IMG/VR virus record: IMGVR_UViG_3300021135_000003
Source: a virus
Direction: 5' to 3' (one strand)
DNA: 64,000 bases
A program made the translations under genes and the position numbers. The notes under the pieces were generated by a model. The model saw only the letters and a list, made by a program, of their open reading frames with translations, made no database searches and was not told where the DNA came from. Of the stretch, positions 3,661-55,235 are shown one piece after another. Within the stretch, counting starts at the first letter, position 1. Every line of letters begins with the position of its first letter.

Positions 3661-4113
3661 ATGGCTGTCTTATTTACAACTGTTAAAAATACAAACCAAG
3701 AAGTAATCGTACATTTTGATACTGTTGCTGCTGAAACTGGAACCCTTACTATTGCTAACTTAGGTGCTGCTACTCAGGCTAGAAATTCTGATACACCAAC
3801 TGTTAACATTGTTAAGTTTATTTCTACTGGTGCGGATGGTGCTACATTGCGTATTACTCGCAATAGCAAAAACATTATTGCATGCGCCCCAGAAAATGCT
3901 CCATTCTTAGATTTTAATTCTAATGGTTTTGCTGACACAACTAACAACACATATGATATTGTTGTTAACAATGATGTAGCAAAACCAGTTACTGGTTATT
4001 TAATTTTACGTAAAGTCGCTGGTTGGTCTACTACAGTTGAGACTGCTACTTACGGTTCTTATGACGATCCAACTATTGTTGGCGCTAACACTAGCTTATC
4101 AGGACACCCATAA
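3661..4113 (+). CDS. hypothetical, probable virion structural protein
   Basis: 150-aa Thr/Ala/Asn-rich ORF with GAGG RBS and late-gene codon usage. Confidence 0.7.
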   Translation: MAVLFTTVKNTNQEVIVHFDTVAAETGTLTIANLGAATQARNSDTPTVNIVKFISTGADGATLRITRNSKNIIACAPENAPFLDFNSNGFADTTNNTYDIVVNNDVAKPVTGYLILRKVAGWSTTVETATYGSYDDPTIVGANTSLSGHP

Positions 4114-4766
4114 TGAAACTTATTAGAGAAGTTTTTGATACAACTAACTTAATCGTTGAAGAAAAGTTAGGTAAACCAAAACAATATTTTATTGAAGGTG
4201 TTTTCCTTCAATCAGAAATTACTAACCGCAATGGTCGTATGTACAAAGAAAGTACAATGGATCGCGAAGTTGGTCGTTATATTAAAGAAGCTGTAGAGAA
4301 TAATCGTGCATACGGTGAACTAGGTCACCCAGAAGGTCCAGGTATTAATCTTGATCGTGTATCACATATGATTACTTCTTTACGCAAAGAAGGTACGAAC
4401 TATATTGGTCGTGCTAAAATTTTAGATACTCCAATGGGTCAAATCGCTAAAGGTCTTTTAGAAGGTGGCGCAAACCTTGGTGTTTCTTCAAGAGCAATGG
4501 GTTCACTTAAGACTAATAACGAAGGTGTACAAGTTGTTCAAGATGATTTCATGCTGTCTACTGCAGCTGATATCGTCGCGGATCCTTCAGCCCCAGATGC
4601 TTATGTACGTGGCATTATGGAAGGTAAGGAATGGACATTTGTTGATGGAAAGTTTGTGGAACAAAATATTGAAGAGGTAAAATCTTTCATTAAGAAAACT
4701 TCTTCTAGAAATCTAGAGGAAGCAAAGATTCGAGCTTTCCAACACTTTCTGAGTAAAATCAGATAA
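4113..4766 (+). CDS. gp21: prohead core protease
   Basis: NRNGRMY, GELGHP, GVSSRAMGS and DIVADPSAPDA motifs. Confidence 0.98.
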   Translation: MKLIREVFDTTNLIVEEKLGKPKQYFIEGVFLQSEITNRNGRMYKESTMDREVGRYIKEAVENNRAYGELGHPEGPGINLDRVSHMITSLRKEGTNYIGRAKILDTPMGQIAKGLLEGGANLGVSSRAMGSLKTNNEGVQVVQDDFMLSTAADIVADPSAPDAYVRGIMEGKEWTFVDGKFVEQNIEEVKSFIKKTSSRNLEEAKIRAFQHFLSKIR

Positions 4767-4808: not shown

Positions 4809-5825
4809 ATGTCAATCGAACAAAAAATCGCTGAAATTTTAGCAGAGTCTAAGAATAAACAATTAGATGAAGCCAAATTGGCTGGCGCTGAAACAGGTAA
4901 AAAAGATGTTACTGCTCATTCTGCAGGTGGCGATAAAGAGCCTATCCGTAAAGGTGATGCTGTTAAAGCAACTAAACCAGAAGATGAGCCAAGCAATGCT
5001 AAGAATGACGTGCAAACCCAAGAAGATGCTGAGAAAGGTCCAGAAGGTTCTATGAACCCACACAATGGCGACCAGACTCCAGTTCGCAAAGGTAACGCTG
5101 TTAAAGGTGTTAAGGAAGATTTAGATGCTATGTTTGGCACTGAAGATCTTTCAGAAGAATTTAAAGACAAAGCTGCTATGATTTTTGAAGCTGCAGTTAT
5201 GTCACGTGTAACTGCTGAAGTTGCACGTTTAGAAGAAGAGTTCGAAGCAAAAGTAGCTACTACTGTTGCTGAAGAAATTGAGGGTATTGTTGAACAAGTT
5301 GATGGATACCTCGGCTATATTGCTGAGCAGTGGATGACACAGAATGAAATCGCCCTTGAGCGTGGTATTAAGTCTGATATTTTAGAAAGTTTCGTTGATG
5401 GTCTGAAAGGACTATTCGAAGAACACTATATTGATGTTCCTGAAGAAAAGTATGACCTACTTGCCGACATGGAAGAAACAATTGGTGAACTTAAAGCGAA
5501 GATTGATGAACAAGTTGCTGCTAATATTGAGTTGACTAAATCAGTTAACGAAGCAAAGCGTAGCGAAATTGTTAAATCAATCAGTGAAGGTTTAACTGAC
5601 ACACAAGCTGAAAAGTTTGCTGGTTTAGTTGCTGAAGTTACTTTCGATGATGCTGAAACTTATGAATCTAAAGTTAAGACTTTACGTGAATCTTATTTCA
5701 CTACTAAAACTACATCAGGTGTAACATCTGTTGTAACTGATACTCCAGTTGAAGTTATCACTGAAGCTGGATCAAAGCGTACAGACCCAAAAATGTCTGC
5801 TTATCTATCAGCACTCAACAATTAA
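4809..5825 (+). CDS. gp22: major prohead scaffolding protein
   Basis: Acidic coiled coil with LSEEFKDKA..IFEAAV and VDGYLGYIAEQWM..NEIA; between gp21 and gp23. Confidence 0.95.
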   Translation: MSIEQKIAEILAESKNKQLDEAKLAGAETGKKDVTAHSAGGDKEPIRKGDAVKATKPEDEPSNAKNDVQTQEDAEKGPEGSMNPHNGDQTPVRKGNAVKGVKEDLDAMFGTEDLSEEFKDKAAMIFEAAVMSRVTAEVARLEEEFEAKVATTVAEEIEGIVEQVDGYLGYIAEQWMTQNEIALERGIKSDILESFVDGLKGLFEEHYIDVPEEKYDLLADMEETIGELKAKIDEQVAANIELTKSVNEAKRSEIVKSISEGLTDTQAEKFAGLVAEVTFDDAETYESKVKTLRESYFTTKTTSGVTSVVTDTPVEVITEAGSKRTDPKMSAYLSALNN

Positions 5826-5851: not shown

Positions 5852-7144
5852 ATGGATCGCAAACAATTAATGGAAAAATGGGCACCCGTGTTAAATCACG
5901 AAGGCTCTGCTCCAATCGAATCATCTTACAAGCGTGAAGTTACTGCTGTTCTATTAGAGAACCAGGAACGTGAAATGGCTAAGCAAACTGAAGCTCTTTT
6001 CGAAGCAGCTCCAGCTAACAGCGTTGGTTCATATCCTGATGCTGGCGGTATCGCTAAGTTTGACCCAGTATTGATCAGCTTGGTACGTCGTGCAATGCCA
6101 CAACTTATCGCTTATGATATCGCTGGTGTTCAACCAATGACTCAACCTACTGGTTTGATTTTCGCAATGAAATCACGTTACAGCACTCAAGGTGGTACTG
6201 AAGCGTTATTCAACGAAGCAAACTCTGCATTCTCTGGTACTGGTACACAATCTGGTGGTCCATCTACTGGTGATGCTGCTGCAGGTACTGGTCTTGCTAC
6301 TTCCGCAGCTGAGCGACTTGGCCAAGGTGGTACTGGTGACGGTTCTTTCGGTGCTATGTCTTTCTCTATCGAAAAGACTTCTGTAGTTGCTAAGACTCGT
6401 GCTCTTAAAGCTGAATACTCAGTTGAATTAGCACAAGACTTGAAAGCAGTTCATGGTCTTGACGCTGAAGGCGAATTAAGCAACATTCTCTCTACTGAGA
6501 TTCTTGCTGAGATCAACCGTGAAGTTGTTCGTACTGTATACCGTAGTGCTGTTCCAGGTGCTGCTGTTGGTACTGCTACTCAAGGTACTTTTGACCTAGA
6601 CGTTGACTCTAATGGTCGTTGGTCTGTTGAAAAATTCAAAGGTCTAATGTTCCAAATCGAACGTGAAGCCAATGCTATCGGTCAACAAACTCGTCGTGGT
6701 CGTGGTAACTTTATCATCACTTCAGCTGACGTTGCTTCTGCTCTAGCAATGGCTGGTGTGTTGGATTATCAATCTGGTCTAACTGGTAAAAATAATCTAA
6801 CTGTTGATGATACTTCTACTACTTTCGCTGGTGTTCTAAACGGCAAGTACAAAGTTTATGTTGACCCATATTCATCAAACGTATCTGCTAGCCAATTCTT
6901 CGTAGTTGGTTACAAAGGTGCTTCTGCGTTTGACGCTGGTTTGTTCTATTGCCCATACGTTCCGCTCCAAATGGTTCGTGCTGTTGATCCTAACAGCTTC
7001 CAACCTAAAATTGGTTTCAAGACACGTTATGGTATGGTTGCTAACCCATTCGTTGACTTGGACGACAGCTCTGGTACTACTGGTGATATTATCTCCAATA
7101 AGAACTACTACTACCGTCGCGTAACTGTTACTAACTTGCTATAA
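5852..7144 (+). CDS. gp23: major capsid protein
   Basis: GVQPMTQPTGLIFAM, RALKAEYSVELAQDLKAVHGLDAE and FQPKIGFKTRYG motifs. Confidence 0.99.
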   Translation: MDRKQLMEKWAPVLNHEGSAPIESSYKREVTAVLLENQEREMAKQTEALFEAAPANSVGSYPDAGGIAKFDPVLISLVRRAMPQLIAYDIAGVQPMTQPTGLIFAMKSRYSTQGGTEALFNEANSAFSGTGTQSGGPSTGDAAAGTGLATSAAERLGQGGTGDGSFGAMSFSIEKTSVVAKTRALKAEYSVELAQDLKAVHGLDAEGELSNILSTEILAEINREVVRTVYRSAVPGAAVGTATQGTFDLDVDSNGRWSVEKFKGLMFQIEREANAIGQQTRRGRGNFIITSADVASALAMAGVLDYQSGLTGKNNLTVDDTSTTFAGVLNGKYKVYVDPYSSNVSASQFFVVGYKGASAFDAGLFYCPYVPLQMVRAVDPNSFQPKIGFKTRYGMVANPFVDLDDSSGTTGDIISNKNYYYRRVTVTNLL

Positions 7145-18998: not shown

Positions 18999-19000
18999 AC

Positions 19001-19029: not shown

Positions 19030-19059
19030 ATTATTTGAAATTGAAAAAGGAAATTGATT

Positions 19060-43774: not shown

Positions 43775-43780
43775 TATAAT
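43752..43780 (+). promoter_or_regulatory. sigma70-type promoter
   Basis: TTGACT-17 bp-TATAAT. Confidence 0.8.
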
Positions 43781-43799
43781 ATAATTTTGGGAACACACT

Positions 43800-44120
43800 A
43801 TGACACACTTGAGAGAAGAAAATTTGGCAGTTGTTACAAGAAGAATTGCTGAGGATGCATGGGTAACTAATCTTGATGGAACAAAATCAAGAGCAGTATC
43901 TTGGTGCAAATGCTGTAGGGTTCATAAACCTTTAAGTGCATTTTACTTAAAATCAAAGAGTACTAGAAAACATAAAAATGATGTTCGAGGATATTGTTGC
44001 ATTTGTTTTGATGAACAAAACAAAAAAGCAAAAGAAATTCGTGAAGAACGAAATGCAGTCAAACAATTGAATATTCTGATCAATGAATTAAAGATAGAAT
44101 TTGAGACTGCGAATCAGTAA
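43800..44120 (+). CDS. zinc-finger hypothetical protein
   Basis: CKCC..KPLSAFY...CCIC pattern. Confidence 0.7.
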   Translation: MTHLREENLAVVTRRIAEDAWVTNLDGTKSRAVSWCKCCRVHKPLSAFYLKSKSTRKHKNDVRGYCCICFDEQNKKAKEIREERNAVKQLNILINELKIEFETANQ

Positions 44121-44683
44121 TGAATTTCGAACATATTTTTCCATCAGTTATAGGTTATGAGATTAATAAAGATTTAACAGATAACATTTTGCTTATTGCA
44201 AAAGAATATCTTTCTGATGATTCTAAGATAACCTATGAATGGAATTATAAAAACACATATGGTAATATCTTAATAGATGATAAATTAAATTTTGTATATG
44301 AGAAGATAGCTGAACTATCAAATACATATTTGATAACCTCTAATATTAAACCACCAGAAAAATTAGAAATACAACTTTTCTTTAGTGAAATATACGGAAA
44401 CGACACTCATGTTAAACACTCTCATCCAGGAGCATTACTTTCTGGATTATTTTATTTGACTGTTCCAGATGATGCTGCTCCAATTATTTTTTATGATACG
44501 AGCCCACATTATGATTATATTCCGTATAATGCATTAAATCCATCTGATGACCGTAGGCAATATATTATAAATCCAAAAGAAGGTATGGTTCTAATATGGA
44601 ATTCTTGGTACCAGCATGAAGTTCCAAAATCAAATAGTATTAAACCAAGAATTACAGCAGTGTTTAATGTTGCTAGAAAATAA
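44120..44683 (+). CDS. putative 2OG-Fe(II) oxygenase (TIGR02466-like)
   Basis: HSHPGALLSGLFY, P.EG....W.S...HEV and RITAVFN motifs. Confidence 0.82.
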   Translation: MNFEHIFPSVIGYEINKDLTDNILLIAKEYLSDDSKITYEWNYKNTYGNILIDDKLNFVYEKIAELSNTYLITSNIKPPEKLEIQLFFSEIYGNDTHVKHSHPGALLSGLFYLTVPDDAAPIIFYDTSPHYDYIPYNALNPSDDRRQYIINPKEGMVLIWNSWYQHEVPKSNSIKPRITAVFNVARK

Positions 44684-45699
44684 TGGATTACAGACAACCT
44701 CAAAATAATAGAGAAGCGTTCATTCGCTGGTACGCATGGTCATTGAAGTATGATGACTGTGATCCAGCTGTTTGGTGCACGAACTATCTCAATAAGCGTT
44801 ACGAGCATAATGATGAACAACGTCTTTGGCTCGCTTGGCTTTACGGTAACACTTATCAACTACCAACTGCGTGGGTATTGATGAATGAATTTCCTGATTA
44901 TGAATTAGCAACAGTTGATAGAATTACGCAGTGGAACTCAACAAATTATAAACGATTACGTTACCAAACTGATACCAAGTGGAACAAGGGGCATCTCCCT
45001 GCCATGTTTGCTTCATATCAGCAATTTATTGGTAACAAAACTCAACGAGAAAGAATGGAAGGGTTTTATGGAGACAATGAAGAGACAAACTTTGATAACC
45101 TGTGGGAAAGCGTTAAGTCTGGGCTGCATAAGTTTGGTCGCTATTCCACTTGGTTTTATCTTCAGCATCTTAAGCATACCGCTGGTATTCTTATCAGCCC
45201 TACTAGTCTCATGCTGGATGATTATGATGGCTCTCGGTCTCATCGTAATGGATTATTATGCGCCCTCGGCAGACATTACGATATGGATAGAAAACTCACT
45301 GAACAAGAGTATGCAACTCTTGAGTCAGAAGCCAGATCTATTCTCATCGAAACCAAAGATAGATTCCCAGATTTGGAAACGCAAATAGATTTTTTTACAA
45401 TGGAAACCTGTCTGTGTTCGTTTAAGAAAATCTTTAGAGCACATCATGGACGTTACCTTGGTTACTACTTAGATCGTCAGGCTGAAGAGATTATTAAAGC
45501 AGAGGGTGATGGTTGGTATGGTATTGATTGGGATGTTCTGTGGCAAGCACGTGAAGAAACTATTGACTTACGTCTAGATCACAAAAGAGGAATCGATAAA
45601 GAAAAGTTTCCTGCATTTATAAATTCAGGTAAAATAGAAAACTTGGATTGGATGTTTGATGATGAAGAACCTATGTTAATTGGATTGGAGAATTTTTAA
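44683..45699 (+). CDS. amino acid:DNA transferase-like protein (aGPT-PPlase clade 2, HhH glycosylase-like fold)
   Basis: DCDP, EQRLWLAWLY, KFGRYSTWFYL (HhH-like) and METCLCSFKK motifs; near the P-loop kinase. Confidence 0.75.
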   Translation: MDYRQPQNNREAFIRWYAWSLKYDDCDPAVWCTNYLNKRYEHNDEQRLWLAWLYGNTYQLPTAWVLMNEFPDYELATVDRITQWNSTNYKRLRYQTDTKWNKGHLPAMFASYQQFIGNKTQRERMEGFYGDNEETNFDNLWESVKSGLHKFGRYSTWFYLQHLKHTAGILISPTSLMLDDYDGSRSHRNGLLCALGRHYDMDRKLTEQEYATLESEARSILIETKDRFPDLETQIDFFTMETCLCSFKKIFRAHHGRYLGYYLDRQAEEIIKAEGDGWYGIDWDVLWQAREETIDLRLDHKRGIDKEKFPAFINSGKIENLDWMFDDEEPMLIGLENF

Positions 45700-46151
45700 T
45701 GGCTATTACTAAAGGTCAAATGACTGGACTTACTGGTGCTATGTATGAAGATATGAATCCTGCTAGTGTTTCAATTTCAAATACTGGTGCTATTACTGGA
45801 ACTATTATTGGAGCAGCAGGTAGTACGATTACTACTGGAACAGGAATAAGTTCTATCTCAATTCGAACAAGTGCTGATGAAATCTTTGATAGATATTCTT
45901 TAAATGAGTTTCTTGTTGAGCATCGTGTTCAAGAATTTGAACTTATGAAACTCCGTGAAACCACTGTTGACTATGCTGATGTTATTAAAAATAATCTAGC
46001 AAAGACTGCTTCTAAAGAAATTATCAAGAAAATGACCTTCACAAAGAAACATGAGATTGATAGTGATACTCATTCATTCCGTGGACGTGTTTGGGTATTT
46101 ACGAAAGATGAACTAAACAAAATGATTGAGGAGATCAGAAATGGCATTTGA
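45699..46151 (+). CDS. hypothetical protein with Thr/Gly/Ser-rich N-terminus
   Basis: Coupled ORF with GGAG RBS. Confidence 0.7.
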   Translation: MAITKGQMTGLTGAMYEDMNPASVSISNTGAITGTIIGAAGSTITTGTGISSISIRTSADEIFDRYSLNEFLVEHRVQEFELMKLRETTVDYADVIKNNLAKTASKEIIKKMTFTKKHEIDSDTHSFRGRVWVFTKDELNKMIEEIRNGI

Positions 46152-46749
46152 AGAACGTATCGGCGCAACTGATATTATTACATTCGAAAGAACTACCATG
46201 GAAACAAAAGAACGAAAGATAGTTGCTGTCGGTGGATCTCCTGGAACTGGAAAGACTACGTTATTCCGTAAATATATGGAAGATAAACAGTGGATCGGAG
46301 TTGAGCCAGCAAAATTAGTATCAACAATGTATAATACCGAACGAGATCTTTATATCCTTGGTAAATACGAAGAGGGTGAAACCTTTGCTGGAACCGATCG
46401 CCTTTCTATGGCTGTTCAACCACCTCTTCAAGAATGGGTCGCTTCCCATAACTGCAATATCCTTTTCGAGGGAGATCGGGTTTTCAACCAATCATTCCTA
46501 GAGTTCTGCATGGGTCTCCCAAATACCAAGCTAGAAGTGGTATTTCTAAAGGCTCCCAAAGATATTTTAGAACAACGCTATAAAGATCGTGGATCTGACC
46601 AGTCAGAACAATTCCTAAGAGGAAGAGAAACTAAATATAGTAACTTGATGTCTAATTTTGAACTTATGCCATATATTACTGAGTTTGTAAACACTAACTT
46701 AGAGGAGCAGGGGAAGGTTCTTGCATTTTTGGAGAAGCAGTTTAGTTAA
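46141..46749 (+). CDS. P-loop nucleotide/DNA kinase (5-hmU DNA kinase-like role predicted)
   Basis: GGSPGTGKT, LGKY....FAGTDRLSMAVQP, FEGDR and R..RGS.Q motifs. Confidence 0.78.
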   Translation: MAFEERIGATDIITFERTTMETKERKIVAVGGSPGTGKTTLFRKYMEDKQWIGVEPAKLVSTMYNTERDLYILGKYEEGETFAGTDRLSMAVQPPLQEWVASHNCNILFEGDRVFNQSFLEFCMGLPNTKLEVVFLKAPKDILEQRYKDRGSDQSEQFLRGRETKYSNLMSNFELMPYITEFVNTNLEEQGKVLAFLEKQFS

Positions 46750-46769: not shown

Positions 46770-47465
46770 ATGTATCACCTAGAAAACGCCAATTATGACT
46801 TTATGGAATTACTGAATTTCTATTCAGTACCTTTCCGAGCGAAATTCATACCCTCAAAAATATGGAAAGATTTAGATAACTACCGAAACGACTCAGTTGG
46901 ACTAGGTAATTATGTTAAGAAGTGGCGCACTAAAATAGAATGGAGAAAAGAGCCATCTAAAGCCACAAGATTTAAAAGAGGGGTTAGTATTGCAGGCGAA
47001 TACGATATCGAGAAACGCCAGTGCTGTCTTATAATCTATACAGATTATTTTAATACATTCCCCTTTACTGAAAATGGTTGGAGAAATTTTAAGTTCCGAT
47101 TAATAACATGCCTTCAGCATGAGATTATCCACTACATGCAATATGATAGACGTGACGATCAATGGAGCCACTACGTAGTTCCATATAAAAAAGCCCATAA
47201 CAAAAGAAAGAATGACGAGAGACAATATCTCTCTGAGTTCGATGAGATCCAAGCATATGCTCATTGTATATTAATGGATTTTAAATCTAGACGTCCAAAT
47301 ATGGATATTGAAACCCTCCTCAATAGATGTAAAACCCATCGTGATTCTAGAACTTTAACATACTTCTTAAAGACATTTGATTATGATTTTAAGAATAACG
47401 CAGCAATACCTAAATTAATGCAGCAAATAGTTAAATGGGAACGTAAATATAATCGAATTACTTAA
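46770..47465 (+). CDS. putative zincin-like metallopeptidase
   Basis: QHEIIHYMQ plus a downstream EIQAYA. Confidence 0.6.
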   Translation: MYHLENANYDFMELLNFYSVPFRAKFIPSKIWKDLDNYRNDSVGLGNYVKKWRTKIEWRKEPSKATRFKRGVSIAGEYDIEKRQCCLIIYTDYFNTFPFTENGWRNFKFRLITCLQHEIIHYMQYDRRDDQWSHYVVPYKKAHNKRKNDERQYLSEFDEIQAYAHCILMDFKSRRPNMDIETLLNRCKTHRDSRTLTYFLKTFDYDFKNNAAIPKLMQQIVKWERKYNRIT

Positions 47466-47476
47466 ATCCATCTCGT

Positions 47477-47484
47477 TATAAATA
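47477..47484 (+). promoter_or_regulatory. T4-type late promoter
   Basis: Exact TATAAATA at the head of the internal-protein cluster. Confidence 0.75.
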
Positions 47485-47515: not shown

Positions 47516-48859
47516 ATGAAAGATTATAGACAACTAATCAAAGAACTACCGAGTAAAACGATAGTTCTAGCCTGTGGAAAGTTTAACCCTCCGACTATCG
47601 GACATGAACTTCTTATAAAGGCTGTCAAATCTCTAGCCGAGCAGAAGAATGCCAGCTACGCCATTTATGCGTCCGATCTAAGCGACGCTAAAAAGAATCC
47701 TCTAATAGTAGAAAAGAAAGTACAGTATTTAAATCTGTTATTTCCGAATACACATTTTTCTACATACTCAGATAATATTAATGAAACAGTTTCTAAACTA
47801 AAAGAAACTTATCGAAAAGTTATCGTTGTTACAAGCGCAGATAAAGTAGCATCACTAAAGAAATCTTTGAAAGAAGCTACAGTTATATCAGCAATGGATA
47901 AAGATCCAGACAGCGAAGATACTACTCGTACTTATGCAGTTAAAGGTTTATACGAAGAGTTTAAAAAGAATTTACCTTCAGCAATTCGTGAAATTGATTC
48001 TCGTAGATTAATGAATGATTTAAGAGTTGGTTCAGGATTAGAACCAATCAAAGAAGAAATTAAATTAGTCAAAGATAATCTACGTGAACAATATTTCCGT
48101 GGTGAAATATTTAATGTTGGTGAACACGTTGAGTCAGATGGTCAAGAATATGAAATTATTAAACGTGGTTCTAATCATTTGTTGCTAAAAGAATCAACAG
48201 GTAAATTAGTAAGCAAATGGATTCAAAATGTTAAATTAATAGAAACCGATATGCAAAAGAAAAAATTAAAATCATTTAGAACTATCGCAGAAACTTACGA
48301 CCATCACCACGAAGAAGCGATGCAGCATAAAGATAATGCAGAGAAATCTAAAACTGCTGGTAACATGGGTGGTTATCATGCACATATGGTTAATCATCAC
48401 GACTCAATGGGTCGCTGGCATGAATCTAAAGGTAGACATTCTTCTGCTGAGCGTGAGTGGGAAAAAGCTGAACAACATCATAGCGAAGGATTAAAACATC
48501 CTTATGTTTCTGAAAGTGTTATTAAAGAAGAAACTAAAATTGAACACCATGCTGACCACAAGTTAATTGACCATGGTCATGCTGTTCAAATTAAAATTGG
48601 TAAAGAACACCACTCTAAGATTGGTAAACTACAACACGGGCAACGCCATTCTTTTAAAGAAAAAGATGGAGAGAATCACTGGGTTGCTGTAAAGCGTGGT
48701 GATCGTTTACATTTTTTACCTAATCATTTAGATACACAGACTATGTCTTCAATGTCTTGTCATATCGGTGCTGCTGACTGGAATGGTCCATCAGGTGCTG
48801 CTCCTCAAGATGGAAGACAACCATTTGATCCAATGAGTAGTTCGAATGCTGACGTTTAA
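47516..48859 (+). CDS. cytidyltransferase-like (HxGH) protein with His-rich C-terminal modules
   Basis: GKFNPPTIGH, KKNPL and REQYFRGEIFNVG motifs; CTS-like N-terminus MKDYRQLIKE. Confidence 0.75.
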   Translation: MKDYRQLIKELPSKTIVLACGKFNPPTIGHELLIKAVKSLAEQKNASYAIYASDLSDAKKNPLIVEKKVQYLNLLFPNTHFSTYSDNINETVSKLKETYRKVIVVTSADKVASLKKSLKEATVISAMDKDPDSEDTTRTYAVKGLYEEFKKNLPSAIREIDSRRLMNDLRVGSGLEPIKEEIKLVKDNLREQYFRGEIFNVGEHVESDGQEYEIIKRGSNHLLLKESTGKLVSKWIQNVKLIETDMQKKKLKSFRTIAETYDHHHEEAMQHKDNAEKSKTAGNMGGYHAHMVNHHDSMGRWHESKGRHSSAEREWEKAEQHHSEGLKHPYVSESVIKEETKIEHHADHKLIDHGHAVQIKIGKEHHSKIGKLQHGQRHSFKEKDGENHWVAVKRGDRLHFLPNHLDTQTMSSMSCHIGAADWNGPSGAAPQDGRQPFDPMSSSNADV

Positions 48860-49238
48860 AGACTATGTTTCTGATAGAGAAGCAATTGATGAGGCAACAA
48901 CTTCATCAAGAATGCATGCTAAGTTTAGATTAAGAACTAGCAAAACTAAACGTAAACAAAGAAGTAAAATAGCAACACATACTGTTGCTAATGGTAAGAA
49001 AGCTGAAAGCAGAGCCAGAAGAATGGCTATTAGAATGATGAAGAAAAGAATGTTGCGTGGTAGAAAGTTACGTAATCTAGCACCAGATGAAAAAGCAAGT
49101 ATTGAAAAGCGTATGAAAACAAAAATGGCGCAGATTAAACAAATGACTTCAGGTCTAGTTGCGACAGTTAGAAGAATTGAAAAATCAAGATTAACCCATG
49201 GGGAAGTTTCTCGTGGAAAAACTAGAAGAGTATTTTAA
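48846..49238 (+). CDS. highly basic putative internal head protein
   Basis: MLTFKDYV...IDEA leader followed by an Arg/Lys/Met-rich body. Confidence 0.7.
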   Translation: MLTFKDYVSDREAIDEATTSSRMHAKFRLRTSKTKRKQRSKIATHTVANGKKAESRARRMAIRMMKKRMLRGRKLRNLAPDEKASIEKRMKTKMAQIKQMTSGLVATVRRIEKSRLTHGEVSRGKTRRVF

Positions 49239-49685
49239 ATGGATGAATTAAAAACCGCAATTAAAGTATTGTTGGCAAATGCTACTGTCATGTATTATAA
49301 AACACACCAATTCCATTGGAACGTAGAAGGTATTTTATTTACACAATATCATGCATTCTTTGAAGAAGTTTACGTTGATGTATATAATTCTATTGATCCT
49401 ACTGCAGAACTGCTACGTAAGATTGATGACTATGCGCCAGTAAGTATTGATGAGTTATACAAATATAAAACAATCGAAGAAGAATCAACTAGATTAATAC
49501 TTCTTTCTGATATTTTGCAAAAGTTAATCGAAGCAAATCAAGAAGTGATTAACAGCCTAAATAAAGTGTTCGAACTAGCAAATGCAAATAAACAACAAGG
49601 TATTTGTAATTTTATTGCTGACCGAATCGATACACATCAGAAACATGGATGGTGGTTAAAAACATCCGCAAAGAAAATAGGTTAA
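49239..49685 (+). CDS. dps: Dps/ferritin-like protein
   Basis: HQFHWNVEG..F..YH.FFEE.Y, D..AE and H.KHGW motifs. Confidence 0.9.
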   Translation: MDELKTAIKVLLANATVMYYKTHQFHWNVEGILFTQYHAFFEEVYVDVYNSIDPTAELLRKIDDYAPVSIDELYKYKTIEEESTRLILLSDILQKLIEANQEVINSLNKVFELANANKQQGICNFIADRIDTHQKHGWWLKTSAKKIG

Positions 49686-49686
49686 T

Positions 49687-50880
49687 ATGAAATCATTCCA
49701 AACATATTTAAAAGAAGAAGCCGAAGGTGCTAAGTTAAAGCACATTACGCATCCTGAAGATCGTCCATTAATGCATGGTCACGAAGGATTTGAACATGCT
49801 CATGGTGCTTTAATGCACGCACATGAACATATGAAAGCTGGTAAGAACAATAGTAACCTTACCACTAAGTATGATGGTTCTCCTGCTGTAGTTTTCGGCA
49901 CTCATCCTAAGAATGGTAAATTCTTTGTTGCTTCTAAATCAGCATTTAATAAAGAACCAAAGATTAATCATACTGATGCTGACATTGACAAGAATCATGG
50001 CCACGCTCCAGGTCTTGCCACTAAATTAAAAGCTGCGTTACATCACCTACCTAAAGTTACACCAAAAGGTAAAGTATATCAGGGTGATATTATGCACTCT
50101 GAGGGTGATGTTAAACACGATAAAAAATCTGGTAAAGCATCCTTTACTCCTAACACTATTACCTACACTGCGCATGGTGAAGAAGCCAAGAAAGCTACAA
50201 AAGCAAAAGTAGGTGTTGCTGTTCATACTCAATATCATGGTAAAGATATTCAATCATTATCTGCTCATCATGAAGTTAATCATCACGAATTTGGTCAGCA
50301 TCCTGATGTTCACCACCATGATGCCAGCTATGATACTAGCACAGCAAATCATTCTAAACAAAATCAAGATGAGTTTCATAAACATATGGCAGCTGCCAAA
50401 GCAGTTCATGACACTCATGGCGACAAAATGTATAATGCTATTCACCCAGCGCATAGTGGTGAACATGGTCATCTAGCAACATACATTAACTCAACTGTTA
50501 GAAATAACACTACTCCAAACGTAAAAGATTTTAAATCTCATCTTGAAGCCCACCATGCTAAGCAAGTTGCTGGTGTTAAGACAGAAAAAGCCCAAGAACA
50601 AAAACGTGCAAAAGGTAAAGAAGAAATTGCCCACGTTGAGAAAAACAAAGGGCATTATGAGAATACATTAACTGCTCATAATCATTTGGCAGCAGCAAAG
50701 AATACATTAGTTAAATCTTTAGAAAGTGGTCATAGTAATTATGAACACCACATCGAAGGTAAAGAATCCAAACCAGAAGGTTTTGTTATTAATCATGAAC
50801 ACAATGGTAAAACAGAACCATCTAAACTTGTGAATCGTGCTGAGTTCGCAAGATCAAATCTTTTAAAGGTGCGTAAATGA
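49687..50880 (+). CDS. His-rich DUF6267-like protein with ligase-type nucleotidyltransferase motifs
   Basis: KYDGSP (motif I), YQGD, EGFVI and KLVNR; N-terminus MKSFQTYLKEE. Confidence 0.7.
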   Translation: MKSFQTYLKEEAEGAKLKHITHPEDRPLMHGHEGFEHAHGALMHAHEHMKAGKNNSNLTTKYDGSPAVVFGTHPKNGKFFVASKSAFNKEPKINHTDADIDKNHGHAPGLATKLKAALHHLPKVTPKGKVYQGDIMHSEGDVKHDKKSGKASFTPNTITYTAHGEEAKKATKAKVGVAVHTQYHGKDIQSLSAHHEVNHHEFGQHPDVHHHDASYDTSTANHSKQNQDEFHKHMAAAKAVHDTHGDKMYNAIHPAHSGEHGHLATYINSTVRNNTTPNVKDFKSHLEAHHAKQVAGVKTEKAQEQKRAKGKEEIAHVEKNKGHYENTLTAHNHLAAAKNTLVKSLESGHSNYEHHIEGKESKPEGFVINHEHNGKTEPSKLVNRAEFARSNLLKVRK

Positions 50881-51947
50881 AATCATTTAAATCATTCTTA
50901 AACGAAGAAATTTATTTCGAAGATAATCTAACAGAAGCTGCTGACGATGCTTCTAAAGAAGGTGGCGTTTCCAATAATACTAAAGGTGTTCTTCATGAAC
51001 TTTTAGTTGGCAAACATTTAAACAATGGTCAGCATATGTCTAAACATGAAAATGCTGAAGGTGAAACACCACAACAAGCGCATGATCGTTTAAAGAAACA
51101 GATTCATCCTAATGATTATAAACGTATTGAAGCAAATGCCAAAAGCGCAGCTGCAGATATTCATAAGAACATCCAAGCAACTCATCCAGGTCATGTAATT
51201 CATGGAGTTCATTGGACTTCAAAACCTGGAGATACAGAAAAAGTAACTGGTGTTAAAGCAACTCAGAAACAAGACTCTTCAGATATCTATATTTCTACTC
51301 ACCACCCTAAGAAACCTAAAGATGAAACCCATCATGGTTATAGTTTAAAGGTTAGTGATAAATCTAGTAAGAATGTTCCATCATCAAGTCTTGGTATGAA
51401 ATCAAGTGGTGAAAAGGCGCAATCGCTTTATAAAGAACACCAAAAGAAAATTAAAACGATGCATCCTGAGTTAGAAGGTAAGAACGAAGAAGCACGTAAA
51501 GAATGGGCACAAAAGAACCCAGAGAAACACAATCAAGTTAAAGCTGAAAATAAAAAACTATTGGCCAATGTTGCGCATCACCATGCTGCTGAATTACAAC
51601 ATCATTTAGATTCTGGTAATCATGAACACGTAGTTAATCATATCCGTGATGTTCTTGCAGCTAAAAGTACTCCAGCTGCAGAAGCTGGTAAAGCAAACTT
51701 CTCTAAACATACTACATACCAAACTGCAAAGGGTGTTCAACATCATACAGCAAACCCAGCTCAAGATTATGAACATATTCTAAAAGATCATAAGAATATT
51801 AAAGTAAAAGCAAGTGGTGGCTCTGTTCATTTTAGTCACACTGATCCAAAAACTGGTAAAGAAACAAAGTTTGCTTCTCAAGCGCATAAGTTTGATTCAC
51901 AAAGCGATCCATTATCAACAATTAAAAGCGCAGGTAAAGCTGTATGA
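50877..51947 (+). CDS. His-rich putative PD-(D/E)xK-like nuclease, internal head protein
   Basis: GVLHE, SDIYI and GYSLK motifs; N-terminus MKSFKSFLNEE. Confidence 0.55.
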   Translation: MKSFKSFLNEEIYFEDNLTEAADDASKEGGVSNNTKGVLHELLVGKHLNNGQHMSKHENAEGETPQQAHDRLKKQIHPNDYKRIEANAKSAAADIHKNIQATHPGHVIHGVHWTSKPGDTEKVTGVKATQKQDSSDIYISTHHPKKPKDETHHGYSLKVSDKSSKNVPSSSLGMKSSGEKAQSLYKEHQKKIKTMHPELEGKNEEARKEWAQKNPEKHNQVKAENKKLLANVAHHHAAELQHHLDSGNHEHVVNHIRDVLAAKSTPAAEAGKANFSKHTTYQTAKGVQHHTANPAQDYEHILKDHKNIKVKASGGSVHFSHTDPKTGKETKFASQAHKFDSQSDPLSTIKSAGKAV

Positions 51948-52363
51948 TTTCCTTTAAAGAATACTTAGAAGAAGCCAAGCGTGGATTGTGGGATAACATC
52001 CATGCTAAACAAGAAAGAATTAAGAATGGTTCTGGTGAACATATGCGCAAACCAGGAAGCAAAGGTGCTCCAACTGATGCAGCATTAAAAGCGTCTCAAA
52101 CAAATGAAGCAGCAGTTGACGCAAAAGGATATAAGTCATCTACTGGTGGGCTAACACAAAAAGGTCGTGATCACTATAATGCACAAGGTGGTCATTTAAA
52201 GGCTCCAGTTACTACACCACCTTCAAAGTTAAAGGCTGGTAGTAAAGCTGCCAATCGTAGAAAATCTTTTTGTGCACGTATGAGTGGCGTTGATGGTCCA
52301 ATGAAGAAACCTAATGGTGAACCAACTCGTAAAGCACTAGCATTAAGAAAATGGAATTGTTAA
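51944..52363 (+). CDS. basic DUF6321-like putative internal head protein
   Basis: RRKSFCARM...RKALALRKWNC; N-terminus MISFKEYLEE. Confidence 0.7.
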   Translation: MISFKEYLEEAKRGLWDNIHAKQERIKNGSGEHMRKPGSKGAPTDAALKASQTNEAAVDAKGYKSSTGGLTQKGRDHYNAQGGHLKAPVTTPPSKLKAGSKAANRRKSFCARMSGVDGPMKKPNGEPTRKALALRKWNC

Positions 52364-52364
52364 A

Positions 52365-55235
52365 ATGATTACCTATAACGAATTAAAAGAAAAATGTACT
52401 TGCTGGACAGGTTACAAACGTAAACCTGGAACTGCACCATGCGCTGAAGGAAGCTGTGTGAAAGAAGAACTAGAAAAACACCACGCATTAGCGTTTGGTC
52501 GTATGAACCCAATTACTTCTGGCCATGAGGCAGTAGTTAATAAACTTCATTCAGTTGCCAAAGAACATAATGCTACTCATAGTCTTGTAGTTTCTCATAG
52601 CCAAGATTCTAAGAAGAATCCTTTATCTGCTGAACAAAAAGTTAATCACGCTAAACACGCATTCCCTGGAACAAATGTAACTGCTGCTAGTAAAGAAGCA
52701 CCTACAATCCTCCACCATGCTGCAGCTGCTCATGCTGCTGGCGCAACTCACTTACATGTAGTTGCTGGTTCTGATCGCCATGAAGAGATGCATAATCTTC
52801 TTCATAAATATAATGGTCAGAATGCTGCTCATGGCAATTATAATTTTAAAAAGATAACAGTACATTCTTCTGGTGAACGTGATCCAGATGCAGAAGGAAC
52901 TACTGGTATCTCTGCAAGTAAAATGCGTGAACATGCTGCTTCTGGAAACAAAAAAGCATTCCACGCTGGAGCACCATCAAAAATGAAACCAGAACACAAG
53001 GACGCCATGTATAACGATGTGCGTAAAGGTATGAACTTAAAAGAAGAAACTATGGATCAACAAGACGATCACGCTAAACAACTAAAGCGTTTTAAAGACC
53101 AAATGACCAAAGGTAATGGTCCAAAAATAGATCCTGAACTTGCTTTAGATAAAAAAGAAAAAGCAGCTATGGGTGTTAAAGAACATCTAGATGCTAACGC
53201 TGGCGCAGGTGCTTGGATTAATGATTTTATTTCTTCAACTAATCCACGTTTTAATAATAAGTCTAAATCAGAACGTCGCAAAATGGCTATTGGTGCTTAC
53301 ATGGCTGCCAAAGCAAAAGGTATGAAAGAAGAATTTGAAATTGAAGAAGGATATGATAAAACTTCTGCAATGCATAAAGCTGCTAAACAAGCTGCTCAAG
53401 GTTTTGATGGTAAAGCAATCTACCATCCAAATGGTCACGCAGAAGTAAGAATGCGCGCAATGGTTCATGGTCATAGTACTGTTAATCCGCATGGAACAGT
53501 TTTAATGTCTGGTGAGGAAAAAGCCAAACGTGCTGCTAAAGAACATGGTGGCAAAGCTGAAGGTAGTATAGTTCATTTTAAAGAAGGTACTCTTCAAGGT
53601 AACGTAGCTGGTGGTGATGCAATGAACACAACTACTTCTGCTCCATCAGATAATAAAATGCCAGCAGGTAGTGTTAAGAAAGTTAAAGGATTCAAATTTT
53701 TTAATGGCACAAATGAACCAAATACTCAAATGGCAGTTAAAGAAGAAACTCTAGATGAACGTAATAAAGCCAATGCTCTTATGCGTAAAACTATGGACGC
53801 TTCTCGTGGTGCTCGTTACAAATTAAACAATCCAGTTCCTGCTGCTGAACCAGAACATAAAACTGCCCAAGCGCATAATAAAGCAATTGGTCGTGCGCTA
53901 CGTAATGAAGGTACCATAGAAACTTCAACTGGAAGAGTTCATAAAAAAGATGAATGGGAAGGATATCCTTCTACATTTAAAGATAAAGACGATAACAAGT
54001 TACTAAAAGGTAATGAACGTAGTCGAATGAATAAAGCAATCCCTCCAAACGATAAGTTAAAGGAAGCTGCTACTGGTAATCCAGGAAATGGTTACCATGG
54101 TGCTGTTCAAAGTCCAGATGAGAAATATGAAGCAACACATAAACATGTTAAGAACTTAACTGACGCTGATGATAAGACAGTTAAACATTATCTAGATTCT
54201 GCTCATGGTCGCCATTTGGCTGGTCGTGAAGAAGATCATGAGTATATTAAAAAGGACTTTAAGAAATTTAAAAAGTATTATCGTCCAGAAATGCATGAGT
54301 CAACTGAGATGGCTAGATTAGATCTTCAAACTATTATTAACAATGTTAATAGAGTTAAACCAATGGTTGATAAAGAAACTGATCTACCAGATTGGATTGA
54401 ATCTAAGATTACTATGGCTGCAGATTATATCAAGTGCGTAAGCGATTATATCGAAGCAGCAGAACAAATCGGAACTGGATTAGAAGAAGAAACTGCTCCA
54501 GTTGGTAAAGTTCAAAAAATTGATAAAAAAACCGCAGTAATAAAATTACATCCTAATGGTGCAGCTTCTGACACCGATGAGGGTTGGGCTAAACCAAAAA
54601 TTAAAGAGGGAACTATGAAATCATATAAAGATTTTTTACAAGGATTAGATGAGGCTTCTAAAAAGAAACCAGCATGGCTTCTTGATGCTGAATTAAATGC
54701 AGAGAAGAAAGAAGGCAAACTTAAAGAAGCAAAAGAAGGCAGTGCTGAAGATAAAAAAGAAGATAAAGCTGGTATGAAGCGTACTGGGATGACTGCCAAA
54801 GAATGGGAAAAGTCTGCTGAAGATAAAAAAGAAGATATGCAGGAAGCTAATTGGATCAAGGGTGCTATTAAACATCCAGGCGCAATGACTGCTGCTGCAA
54901 AACGTGCTGGCGAAACTAACGCTGAGTACGAACAGCAACATAAACACGATTCTGGTAAAGCAGGTCGTCGTGCTCGTCTAGCATTAACTTTAAAGAAAAT
55001 GCATGAAGAACAGATTAATGAATATGAAGCAGATAAGAATGGTGTTTATCGTCATACTAAGAAAGCCACTTACGGAACATCTTATGTTGATCCAGAAGGT
55101 GCTGACGAAACTGCTGCTGATCTAAAGAAAAAAGAAAAGAAAACAGCTGGACGTAAAGCAGGTTCAGGTGCTGGTGTATACAAGCCACGTGCAACAATGT
55201 CCAAGTTAAAACAACTTGGCGCAACTTATAAATAA
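52365..55235 (+). CDS. large modular protein: cytidyltransferase domain plus many short modules (putative polyprotein)
   Basis: FGRMNPITSGH, KKNPL, AGSDR, GERDPD and ISASKMR motifs, then repeated (L/I/V/M)xE boundaries. Confidence 0.8.
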   Translation: MITYNELKEKCTCWTGYKRKPGTAPCAEGSCVKEELEKHHALAFGRMNPITSGHEAVVNKLHSVAKEHNATHSLVVSHSQDSKKNPLSAEQKVNHAKHAFPGTNVTAASKEAPTILHHAAAAHAAGATHLHVVAGSDRHEEMHNLLHKYNGQNAAHGNYNFKKITVHSSGERDPDAEGTTGISASKMREHAASGNKKAFHAGAPSKMKPEHKDAMYNDVRKGMNLKEETMDQQDDHAKQLKRFKDQMTKGNGPKIDPELALDKKEKAAMGVKEHLDANAGAGAWINDFISSTNPRFNNKSKSERRKMAIGAYMAAKAKGMKEEFEIEEGYDKTSAMHKAAKQAAQGFDGKAIYHPNGHAEVRMRAMVHGHSTVNPHGTVLMSGEEKAKRAAKEHGGKAEGSIVHFKEGTLQGNVAGGDAMNTTTSAPSDNKMPAGSVKKVKGFKFFNGTNEPNTQMAVKEETLDERNKANALMRKTMDASRGARYKLNNPVPAAEPEHKTAQAHNKAIGRALRNEGTIETSTGRVHKKDEWEGYPSTFKDKDDNKLLKGNERSRMNKAIPPNDKLKEAATGNPGNGYHGAVQSPDEKYEATHKHVKNLTDADDKTVKHYLDSAHGRHLAGREEDHEYIKKDFKKFKKYYRPEMHESTEMARLDLQTIINNVNRVKPMVDKETDLPDWIESKITMAADYIKCVSDYIEAAEQIGTGLEEETAPVGKVQKIDKKTAVIKLHPNGAASDTDEGWAKPKIKEGTMKSYKDFLQGLDEASKKKPAWLLDAELNAEKKEGKLKEAKEGSAEDKKEDKAGMKRTGMTAKEWEKSAEDKKEDMQEANWIKGAIKHPGAMTAAAKRAGETNAEYEQQHKHDSGKAGRRARLALTLKKMHEEQINEYEADKNGVYRHTKKATYGTSYVDPEGADETAADLKKKEKKTAGRKAGSGAGVYKPRATMSKLKQLGATYK
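55227..55234 (+). promoter_or_regulatory. T4-type late promoter
   Basis: Exact TATAAATA. Confidence 0.7.

What the first reader, a model, noticed from the sequence alone, without database searches (positions are those of the whole stretch)
47516..55235. Late cluster of proteins sharing a T4-type capsid-targeting N-terminus: a packaged and injected enzyme payload
Seen: six of seven consecutive genes behind a TATAAATA late promoter start with similar leaders: MKDYRQLIKE, MLTFKDYVSDRE, MKSFQTYLKEE, MKSFKSFLNEE, MISFKEYLEE and MITYNELKE. Known: T4 internal proteins carry a ~10-aa capsid-targeting sequence (IPIII MKTYQEFIAE) that gp21 removes after Glu, and they are injected with the DNA; IPI is an anti-restriction factor. 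Inference: two HxGH nucleotidyltransferases, a ligase-like protein, a nuclease-like protein and basic proteins are delivered at infection, possibly as a counter-defence or nucleotide/RNA repair kit.
Basis: partly seen in the sequence, partly recalled or inferred. Interest (0 to 1): 0.8.

Follow-up and report, generated by a model that had tools for sequence, protein, structure and literature searches.

The report
Capsid-loading tags on phage enzyme cargo
An uncultured T4-like phage tags six proteins in one late operon, including an RNA-ligase-like enzyme, a restriction-enzyme-like nuclease and two nucleotidyltransferases, with the short leader T4 uses to load proteins into its head, which would explain why such enzymes keep being found in purified cyanophage particles.

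Summary
Six of seven abutting genes (47516-55235) behind a TATAAATA at 47477 begin with M-[KLI]-[ST]-[FY]-x-x-[FYL]-[LIV]-x-E.

- **Statistics:** a pattern shaped on T4's leader hits 4 of 170 window ORFs (0.036 expected), all in the operon. In T4 the same pattern finds ipII and ipIII.
- **PSSM:** a matrix trained only on relatives ranks the six genes as the window's top six. T4's MKTYQEFIAE scores above all 54,540 shuffles.
- **Conservation:** the leader is conserved at peptide level on at least five unrelated families in dozens of relatives.
- **Machinery:** the window encodes a gp21-type S77 protease, a gp22 scaffold, and gp23 with an ALFE|A site.
- **Virion data:** cytidylyltransferase orthologs were MS-detected in S-SM1, S-SZBM1 and S-CREM2 virions. 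The two I inspected carry the leader.
- **Cargo:** W4 has an RNA-ligase fold (KxDG). W5 has a HinP1I/MspI-like nuclease fold. W1 and W7 have TxGH, not HxGH.

Packaging through the leader is well supported. Cleavage, injection and a counter-defence role are inferred. This is a new member of the T4 capsid-targeting kind, not described in print for these phages as far as I found. This scan has flagged the same theme in other marine T4-like genomes.

The parts
47477..47484 (+). TATAAATA, T4-type late promoter motif 31 nt upstream of the operon's first ATG
   Evidence: There are only 4 copies in the window, all on the coding strand. Three sit 13-38 nt before virion-type genes (7218, 47516, 55265). 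The total count is not above chance, so the argument rests on position.
47516..48859 (+). W1, 447 aa: leader MKDYRQLIKE, a TxGH nucleotidyltransferase (cytidylyltransferase-like) and a His-rich C-terminal part
   Evidence: Pfam CTP_transf_like 23.6 bits (cut-off 21). PHROG cytidyltransferase 3e-31. Leader PSSM 14.9. pI 8.4.
48846..49238 (+). W2, 130 aa: leader MLTFKDYVSDRE..AIDE|A, a very basic small protein (pI 11.8, K+R 30%), analogous to an internal protein
   Evidence: (PSSM 13.1). No family was found.
49239..49685 (+). W3, 148 aa: Dps/ferritin-like, acidic (pI 5.5), with no leader in this phage or in any relative
   Evidence: Pfam Ferritin 2.5e-21. NCBIfam Dps models matched below their cut-offs.
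49687..50880 (+). W4, 397 aa: leader MKSFQTYLKE and DUF6267, an RNA-ligase-like covalent nucleotidyltransferase fold
   Evidence: Pfam DUF6267 1.5e-106. AF2 pLDDT 88 with residues 1-15 disordered. VIA Z 9.2 to NgrRnl, 8.4 to Trl1, 8.4/8.2 to T4 Rnl2, 8.1 to REL1 and 7.5 to T4 Rnl1, over 180-208 aligned residues. Invariant residues are K61, D63, G64, E364, G365, V367 and K380.
50877..51947 (+). W5, 356 aa: leader MKSFKSFLNE, a variable acidic linker ending L-x-E|A, and a PD-(D/E)xK nuclease fold nearest HinP1I/MspI
   Evidence: AF2 pLDDT 92 with residues 4-19 at low confidence. Foldseek HinP1I prob 0.95 and MspI prob 0.84. VIA Z 7.7 (203 aligned) and 7.3. Only 4 chains reach Z>=5 and all are PD-(D/E)xK nucleases. 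Invariant residues are H40, E41, D133, D136, S156 and K158.
51944..52363 (+). W6, 139 aa: leader MISFKEYLEE and a DUF6321 C-terminal domain, basic (pI 10.2)
   Evidence: Pfam DUF6321 5e-24. PSSM 23.3.
52365..55235 (+). W7, 956 aa: a weaker leader MITYNELKE, a 4-Cys module, a TxGH nucleotidyltransferase and a long Lys/Ala/Glu-rich tail. The tail holds 10 [LI]xE sites and an internal leader-like MKSYKDFLQGLDE at residue 751.
   Evidence: PHROG cytidyltransferase 1.2e-57. Pfam 20.1 bits, just under the cut-off of 21. PSSM 6.4. The internal leader is conserved in fused relatives.
4113..4766 (+). gp21-type prohead core serine protease, the presumed processing enzyme
   Evidence: Pfam Peptidase_S77 1.9e-36.
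4809..5825 (+). gp22-type scaffolding core protein, the presumed docking partner, with 15 [LI]xE sites
   Evidence: Pfam T4_CASP 1.1e-70. Sites are listed.
5852..7144 (+). gp23-type major capsid protein with a propeptide ending ALFE|AAPA at residue 51
   Evidence: The Pfam Gp23 domain starts at residue 67.

Best explanation
The seven genes form one late operon that encodes head cargo.

Six products start with a roughly 10-residue amphipathic leader, M-[KLI]-[ST]-[FY]-x-x-[FYL]-[LIV]-x-E. This is the counterpart of T4's capsid targeting sequence. During head assembly the leader would bring the proteins into the gp22-based scaffolding core. The gp21-type S77 protease would then cut after the Glu of [LIV]-x-E. 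W2 and W5 may be cut again at a second L/I-x-E|A some 6-10 residues further on, and W7 may be cut at internal sites. The basic, Lys- and His-rich mature proteins would stay among the packaged DNA and leave with it at infection.

The cargo is:
- an RNA-ligase-like nucleotidyltransferase (W4);
- a HinP1I/MspI-like PD-(D/E)xK nuclease (W5);
- two TxGH nucleotidyltransferases (W1, W7);
- a very basic small protein (W2);
- a DUF6321 protein (W6).

Shown here: the leaders and their conservation, the machinery, the folds, and virion presence of the cytidylyltransferase family in three relatives. Inferred: cleavage at the stated Glu, packaging of the other five proteins, ejection, and any action in the host.
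For: - **Leader statistics:** 4 of 170 ORFs match against 0.036 expected, all in the operon.
- **PSSM:** a matrix trained on relatives ranks the six genes top. T4's MKTYQEFIAE scores 14.7, above the shuffle maximum of 11.3.
- **T4 control:** the same DNA pattern finds the starts of ipII and ipIII in T4. The T4 CTS and its single cleavage are described in 10.1101/2021.01.19.427310 and PMC3012670.
- **Conservation:** the leader is kept across orthologs at 43-94% identity and on unrelated families, while the linker after it varies in length. Conserved positions use several synonymous codons, six Leu codons at position 8.
- **Disorder:** the leader plus linker is the only disordered N-terminal part in both AF2 models.
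- **Machinery:** the S77 protease, the gp22 scaffold and gp23 with ALFE|A are present.
- **Complete relatives:** the leaders cluster at the same gp41-gp61 locus.
- **Virion proteomes:** the cytidylyltransferase was detected in S-SM1 (PMC3037559), S-SZBM1 (PMC9146016) and S-CREM2 (PMC10665884).
- **Leaders on detected proteins:** the detected S-SM1 protein begins MKKFSAFLNE and the S-SZBM1 protein begins MRFRQFIIE.
- **Natural contrast:** leaderless stand-alone homologs occur in jumbo phages. The PA5oct copy is not MS-flagged although its neighbours are.
- **Composition:** cargo pI is 8.4-11.8 and K is 11-14%, against a background median pI of 5.6 and K of 7.8%.
Against: - There are no proteomic or N-terminal data for this phage or for five of the six cargo families.
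- The residue after the proposed cut varies (L, A, E, E, A, K), whereas T4 IPII and IPIII have Ala. The exact site is therefore uncertain.
- W7's leader is weak (PSSM 6.4).
- Cyanophage DUF6267 proteins (S-PM2, S-SZBM1, S-SM1) have no leader. Packaging of that family is therefore not universal.
- CsCl-purified virions can carry abundant contaminants, as the S-CREM2 authors themselves caution.
- A packaged nuclease next to the phage's own DNA needs an explanation.
Confidence: 0.72

Rival explanations
1. The leader does load the proteins into the prohead, but they are internal structural or DNA-condensing proteins, or they act only in the producing cell or inside the capsid. On this view they are not an injected enzyme kit with a role in the next host.
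For: Their composition is like T4 internal proteins: basic and Lys-rich. PMC3012670 notes that lysines of internal proteins contact the DNA. W2 has no enzyme domain. W7's tail is low-complexity.
Against: Catalytic-type residues are invariant across 44-52 divergent homologs: K61-x-D-G, E364-G and K380 in W4, and E41, D136 and S156-x-K158 in W5. That argues for retained enzyme activity. T4 internal proteins and CTS fusions are ejected with the DNA (PMC3012670).
Confidence: 0.15
2. The shared N-terminus is not a capsid signal. It would instead be a recognition tag for another enzyme (RiPP or radical-SAM-type modification), an N-terminal stability signal, or a translation-initiation feature.
For: An earlier scan note (e1-127136) found a shared phage leader that tracked a radical-SAM enzyme. 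AAA as the second codon is common in well-translated genes.
Against: No radical-SAM gene is near the locus. The nearest in G001 is about 17 kb away, and G003 (99% complete) has none, yet it has a leader-bearing gene at the locus. Synonymous codons vary at the conserved positions. The leader ends in the protease motif and T4's own CTS scores as a member. Orthologs that carry the leader were found in virions.
Confidence: 0.05
3. The similarity is the residue of recent gene duplication within the operon, or it is chance, and it has no function.
For: W1 and W7 share a paralogous nucleotidyltransferase domain.
Against: W2, W4, W5 and W6 have unrelated folds and families. The leader is kept over orthologs down to 43% identity and in distant phages: P-SSM2, S-RIM8, P-RSM3, S-SM1, Melnitz and the soil phage DLP_6.
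Confidence: 0.02

Closest known systems
Phage T4 internal proteins IPII and IPIII (and IPI) with the capsid targeting sequence MKTYQEFIAE, cut by gp21
   Same: The leader has the same length, position and residue pattern, and ends in [LI]-x-E. The products are basic and Lys-rich. The phage has homologous gp21, gp22 and gp23. The leader is shared by otherwise unrelated proteins. Expression follows a late-type promoter. One pattern recovers both sets.
   Different: The cargo here is large enzymes of 356-956 aa, organised as a single conserved operon in the gp41-gp61 interval. T4's are small non-enzymatic proteins at scattered polymorphic loci. Neither cleavage nor ejection has been tested here.
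Phage T4 Alt, a packaged and injected ADP-ribosyltransferase processed by gp21 (from my own knowledge, not tested here)
   Same: It is an enzyme loaded into the head, trimmed at the N-terminus and delivered with the DNA to act before phage gene expression.
   Different: The enzyme class differs. Here there are a ligase-like protein, a nuclease-like protein and (T/H)xGH nucleotidyltransferases, and several cargoes are encoded together.
Virion-associated cytidylyltransferase of cyanomyoviruses (T4-GC190), reported in S-SM1, S-SZBM1 and S-CREM2
   Same: W1 and W7 are homologs (27-39% identity). The genomic slot is the same. The leader is present on the detected S-SM1 and S-SZBM1 proteins.
   Different: The papers treat it as an auxiliary metabolic enzyme (NMNAT- or TagD-like) or a possible contaminant. 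They give no targeting mechanism.
Ejection proteins of giant phages (SPN3US, phiKZ-like) processed by their prohead protease
   Same: Many head-internal proteins are cut at a short motif ending in Glu and are ejected (PMC7411985 and PMC10052503 abstracts).
   Different: Those phages are a different lineage, with no T4-type N-terminal CTS. I did not compare them in detail here.

Membership tests
T4-type CTS-directed head cargo | N-terminal leader of about 10 residues resembling MKTYQEFIAE and ending [LI]-x-E | tested here: met
   Four of the six match the strict T4-shaped pattern. All six are the top PSSM scores. T4's CTS scores 14.7 on the PSSM built from relatives. W2 and W7 are looser variants.
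T4-type CTS-directed head cargo | The phage encodes a gp21-type (S77) prohead protease and a gp22-type scaffolding core | tested here: met
   Peptidase_S77 1.9e-36 and T4_CASP 1.1e-70.
T4-type CTS-directed head cargo | Late expression together with the head genes | tested here: inconclusive
   TATAAATA lies 31 nt upstream, and similar motifs precede the locus in Melnitz, HTVC008M and S-PM2. The motif count in the window is not above chance and no transcript data exist.
T4-type CTS-directed head cargo | The protein is present in purified virions | tested here: inconclusive
   Met for orthologs of the cytidylyltransferase family in three relatives, from the literature. There are no data for this phage or for the W2, W4, W5 and W6 families.
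T4-type CTS-directed head cargo | The leader is removed by the prohead protease after Glu | not testable with these tools
   This needs N-terminal or semi-specific mass spectrometry, or an in vitro cleavage assay.
T4-type CTS-directed head cargo | The protein is ejected into the host with the DNA | not testable with these tools
   This needs an infection experiment.
ATP-dependent RNA/DNA ligase and capping-enzyme superfamily (W4 / DUF6267) | Adenylyltransferase-domain fold | tested here: met
   VIA Z 7.5-9.2 to seven different RNA ligases over 178-208 aligned residues. Foldseek top ranks are ligases at a weak E of 0.07-0.5. No sequence-level PDB hit was found.
ATP-dependent RNA/DNA ligase and capping-enzyme superfamily (W4 / DUF6267) | Motif I K-x-D-G with the nucleotidyl-lysine, plus motifs IV (EGxV) and V (K) | tested here: inconclusive
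   K61, D63, G64, E364, G365, V367 and K380 are invariant in 44 sequences. Assigning them to the motifs is my reading. No residue-level structural superposition was available.
PD-(D/E)xK nuclease superfamily (W5) | Restriction-endonuclease-like core fold | tested here: met
   HinP1I Z 7.7 (203 of 241 residues) and MspI Z 7.3. All four chains with Z>=5 are PD-(D/E)xK nucleases. Foldseek prob 0.95.
PD-(D/E)xK nuclease superfamily (W5) | Catalytic E ... D ... (D/E/Q/N/S)-x-K constellation | tested here: inconclusive
   E41, D133, D136, S156 and K158 are invariant. Their equivalence to the HinP1I/MspI catalytic residues is inferred from order and spacing, not from a superposition.
(H/T)xGH nucleotidyltransferases, Pfam CTP_transf_like (W1, W7) | N-terminal (H/T)xGH motif and a family profile match | tested here: met
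   W1 scores 23.6 bits, above the cut-off of 21. W7 scores 20.1 bits, just below, but matches PHROG cytidyltransferase at 1.2e-57. The motifs are TIGH and TSGH. The substrate (NMN, CTP or other) is not determined: the NCBIfam NadD match covers 60 residues and is far below its cut-off.

The most novel reading that the evidence does not exclude
The phage loads its capsid with a coordinated nucleic-acid toolkit and injects it ahead of any gene expression. A restriction-enzyme-like nuclease would cut unmodified host DNA while the phage's own DNA is shielded by the hypermodification pathway encoded just upstream. The RNA-ligase-like enzyme and the nucleotidyltransferases would repair or re-tool RNA or nucleotide pools attacked by host defences. 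The same leader would make the cargo set freely exchangeable between phages.
Probability: 0.2. Interest if true: 0.8.

Novelty: new member of a known kind. Interest (0 to 1): 0.55.

Why it matters
- It gives a mechanistic explanation for a repeated observation that had none. "Metabolic" cytidylyltransferases and neighbouring unknown proteins keep appearing in purified cyanophage and related virions.
- It shows that the T4 capsid-targeting system extends to the abundant aquatic T4-like phages. This includes cyanophages, pelagiphage relatives, methylophage Melnitz and even the soil phage DLP_6.
- It turns a set of unknown-function families (DUF6267, the W5 family, DUF6321) into testable candidates for proteins that act in the host at the moment of DNA entry.
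- The leader offers a simple sequence rule for predicting virion cargo in metagenomic T4-like genomes.

Tried and rejected
- **Nucleotide search:** megablast of the region against deposited phages found nothing. Relatives were reached only by protein.
- **Whole genome:** none is held for the window. I used a complete relative (G001) for the genome-wide census instead.
- **PDB by sequence:** profile and sequence searches for W4 and for the W7 N-terminal domain gave nothing meaningful.
- **NCBIfam:** it added only sub-threshold NadD-like and Dps matches.
- **Foldseek:** no hit reached E<=0.001 for either model. The fold calls rest on consistent families at weak E-values plus VIA Z-scores of 7-9, which the tool warns are middling.
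- **TATAAATA count:** it is not enriched in the window (4 found, 7.4 expected). Only its placement supports a promoter.
- **Radical-SAM tag rival:** tested and not supported.
- **Clean non-T4-like control for the cytidylyltransferase family:** not possible, because the family is confined to T4-like and jumbo myoviruses. The leaderless jumbo-phage copies are only a partial control.
- **Stand-alone gene for W7's C-terminal module:** none was found in the loci held.
- **Expression timing:** papers checked gave nothing usable.


Full report
**What the window is.** The window comes from an uncultured T4-like myovirus. It encodes:
- a gp20 portal (1344-2933);
- a gp21-type S77 prohead protease (4113-4766);
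- a gp22 scaffold (4809-5825);
- a gp23 major capsid protein (5852-7144);
- UvsW, gp46/47, gp44, a DNA ligase, gp43, UvsX, gp41, gp61 and NrdAB.

The capsid protein is about 62% identical to those of cyanophage P-TIM40, pelagiphage HTVC008M and methylophage Melnitz, all Kyanoviridae. No deposited phage matches at the nucleotide level. IMG/VR holds many relatives at 43-94% protein identity, including three contigs of about 165 kb that are complete or nearly so.

**The observation.** The genes abut or overlap by 1-14 nt, so they form one transcription unit. TATAAATA sits at 47477-47484, 31 nt before the first ATG. The motif occurs only four times in the window, always on the coding strand. Three copies lie 13-38 nt before virion-type genes. 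The total count is not above chance, so only the placement counts.

**Is the leader more than chance?** Four tests say it is.
- The pattern ^Mxx[FY]xx[FYL][LIV]xE, shaped so that T4's own leader satisfies it, hits 4 of 170 ORFs. All four are in the operon. Shuffled N-termini give a mean of 0.036 and a maximum of 2 in 2000 shuffles.
- I trained a PSSM on 95 leaders from related contigs, leaving out the window and the contig behind G001. It ranks the six flagged genes as the window's top six: 24.0, 23.3, 22.8, 14.9, 13.1 and 6.4. The next ORF scores -2.8. T4's MKTYQEFIAE scores 14.7, above the best of 54,540 shuffled N-termini at 11.3.
- The same pattern, written as DNA, was run over the T4 genome. 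It finds the starts of ipII and ipIII, both reading MKTYQEFIAE|A. It also finds gene 61.1 (MKTFKEFIKE) and one other site whose gene context I did not check (MLLFILLLKE, about 155.1 kb).
- In three near-complete relatives the hits cluster at the same locus, and the controls give 0-1 hits.

**Comparative evidence.** Orthologs of W1, W2, W4, W5, W6 and W7 in dozens of contigs nearly all begin M-[KL]-[ST]-F-x-x-[FY]-[LIV]-x-E. The Dps gene, the upstream 231-aa gene and the downstream head protein never do.
- Conserved positions use several synonymous codons: TTT/TTC at Phe4, six Leu codons at position 8, and GAA/GAG at Glu10. Selection therefore acts on the peptide. The set for that count was pre-filtered for F/Y at position 4, which removed only a few sequences.
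- Right after the leader, the sequence varies in length and composition before each conserved domain starts.
- The leader plus linker is the only disordered N-terminal stretch in both AlphaFold models.
- The locus is syntenic in Melnitz, HTVC008M, S-PM2, S-SZBM1, P-SSM2 and S-SM1: gp41, the cargo genes, an "S-layer"/virion structural protein, then gp61.
- Leaders of the same kind head the following proteins:
  - Melnitz genes (MQGFKTFLSE, (M)INFSKYITE, MKKFSEIIE);
  - the P-SSM2, S-RIM8, P-RSM3 and S-SM1 cytidyltransferases (MKSFSQFLTE, MKKFSAFLTE, MKKFSAFLKE, MKKFSAFLNE);
  - the DUF6267 protein of the soil phage DLP_6 (MMKFTQFLAE).
- A sub-clade has a longer leader of 20-22 residues that also ends in [IV]-[LI]-A-E.

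**The machinery.** Besides the S77 protease and the scaffold, gp23 has an ALFE|AAPA site at residue 51, just ahead of where the mature Gp23 domain begins. gp22 has 15 [LI]xE sites. The 181-aa ORF between portal and protease has 11, as expected of core proteins that are degraded.

**Direct evidence from relatives.** Three independent virion proteomes detected the cytidylyltransferase family.
- S-SM1: T4-GC190 is marked structural and is present in all 16 cyanomyoviruses studied (PMC3037559).
- S-SZBM1: gene 140 and the neighbouring gene 139 were detected (PMC9146016).
- S-CREM2: ORF154 and ORFs 155 and 156, numbered next to it, were detected. The authors note the "frequent detection" of such enzymes in cyanophage virions and caution about contamination (PMC10665884).

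None of the passages I read invokes a targeting sequence. None of the 18 papers listed for the phrase "capsid targeting sequence" concerns these phages, judging by title (21 papers hold the phrase). The detected S-SM1 and S-SZBM1 proteins begin MKKFSAFLNE and MRFRQFIIE.

There is a small natural contrast. The short stand-alone homologs in jumbo phages PA5oct and G17 start directly at the catalytic motif. The PA5oct copy is the only gene in its neighbourhood not flagged as MS-detected. Cyanophage DUF6267 proteins lack the leader, so the cargo set differs between lineages.

**What the cargo is.**
- **W4 (DUF6267).** It folds confidently (pLDDT 88). It aligns over 178-208 residues with RNA-ligase adenylyltransferase domains: Naegleria Rnl Z 9.2, Trl1 8.4, T4 Rnl2 8.4/8.2, REL1 8.1 and T4 Rnl1 7.5. 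K61-x-D63-G64, E364-G365-x-V367 and K380 are invariant. I read these as ligase motifs I, IV and V.
- **W5.** It has hundreds of unnamed metagenomic homologs and folds at pLDDT 92. It matches HinP1I (Z 7.7, 203 of 241 residues) and MspI (Z 7.3). Only four PDB representatives reach Z>=5, and all are PD-(D/E)xK nucleases. H40, E41, D133, D136, S156 and K158 are invariant.
- **W1 and W7.** Both carry TxGH nucleotidyltransferase domains. The substrate is unknown.
- **W2.** A 130-aa protein of pI 11.8.
- **W6.** It ends in DUF6321.
- **W7's tail.** It holds ten [LI]xE sites and an internal leader-like MKSYKDFLQGLDE at residue 751, preceded by KIKE. This is conserved in fused relatives and suggests an old fusion or a polyprotein cut by the protease.
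- **Composition.** All six are basic and rich in Lys and His. W4 has 12.3% His, against a proteome mean of 2.1% and maximum of 4.8%.
- **W3, the leaderless Dps.** It is acidic, and its role in the operon is unexplained.

**Rivals.**
- A radical-SAM or other modification tag is not supported. No such gene lies near the locus, and one near-complete relative has none at all.
- A nucleotide-level or translation feature is contradicted by the synonymous variation.
- Paralogy cannot explain the same leader on unrelated folds.
- The serious rival is that the proteins are packaged but serve as internal structural or DNA-associated proteins, not as an injected toolkit. The invariant catalytic-type residues argue for active enzymes. 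Where they act is unknown.

**Context worth noting.** Directly upstream (39857-46749) lies a DNA-hypermodification cassette: a TET/JBP dioxygenase, an amidotransferase, 2OG-Fe oxygenases, a GNAT, an amino-acid:DNA transferase and a P-loop nucleotide kinase. If the virion DNA is hypermodified, a packaged restriction-like nuclease could spare it and cut host DNA. This is speculation.

**Verdict.** Packaging through a T4-type leader is well supported (about 0.7-0.8). Cleavage site, ejection and function are inferred. It is a new member of a known kind: the mechanism is T4's, and the enzyme cargo and its conserved operon are the new part. Earlier notes of this scan describe the same theme in other marine T4-like genomes. 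They are not independent evidence, but they show the pattern is widespread.

Noticed in passing
window 39857-46749: A DNA-hypermodification cassette lies just upstream of the cargo operon. It holds a Tet_JBP dioxygenase, GATase_6, two 2OG-Fe oxygenases, a GNAT, an amino-acid:DNA transferase (PF18724) and a P-loop nucleotide kinase 3. The virion DNA is probably hypermodified.
   Followed up: partly
window 46770-47465: A 231-aa protein with an HEIIH (HExxH) metalloprotease-like motif and no family match. It is conserved next to the operon in relatives and never carries the leader.
   Followed up: no
L114 (T4, NC_000866) 18966-19130, minus strand: T4 gene 61.1 (54 aa, hypothetical) begins MKTFKEFIKE, a CTS-like leader. 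It lies in the gene 41-gene 61 interval, the same slot as this operon. It may be an unrecognised small internal protein of T4.
   Followed up: partly
window 52365-55235, residues 745-765 of the product: An internal leader-like MKSYKDFLQGLDE is preceded by KIKE and conserved in fused relatives. It suggests a fusion of two tagged genes, or a polyprotein cut by the head protease.
   Followed up: partly
window 52392-52457 (W7 residues 10-31); also L009, ORF frame offset 5705: A small 4-Cys module (CxCWxGYKRxPGTxPC...SC) sits directly after the leader in W7. In one relative it follows a DUF6321-type leader, so it behaves as a mobile mini-domain.
   Followed up: no
window 49687-51947: W4 and W5 have an extreme histidine content (12.3% and 9.6%, against a proteome mean of 2.1% and maximum of 4.8%). 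A leaderless Dps/ferritin gene lies in the same operon. A possible metal link is unexplained.
   Followed up: no
L049, L056, L062 (N-termini of the DUF6267 and W5 orthologs): A sub-clade uses a longer leader of 20-22 residues (MINFKALRSAVGTHLLEQVLAE, MFYLESLRSIANTYLEMILE) that also ends in [IV]-[LI]-A-E.
   Followed up: no
G001 (loci L109/L110), + strand, start 157139: A 453-aa ORF beginning MKTFKTFGEKMQ scores 11.3 on the leader PSSM and lies outside the cargo locus. It may be a further cargo gene in the complete relative.
   Followed up: no
window 3113-3658: A 181-aa ORF between portal and protease (the gp67/gp68 position) begins MKYYELKSSL and has 11 [LI]xE sites. It is probably a degraded prohead core protein.
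   Followed up: partly
L112 (PA5oct) 2456-3028; L123 (G17) 886-1419: Jumbo-phage homologs of the nucleotidyltransferase are short, stand-alone and leaderless. The PA5oct copy is not flagged as MS-detected although its neighbours are.
   Followed up: partly
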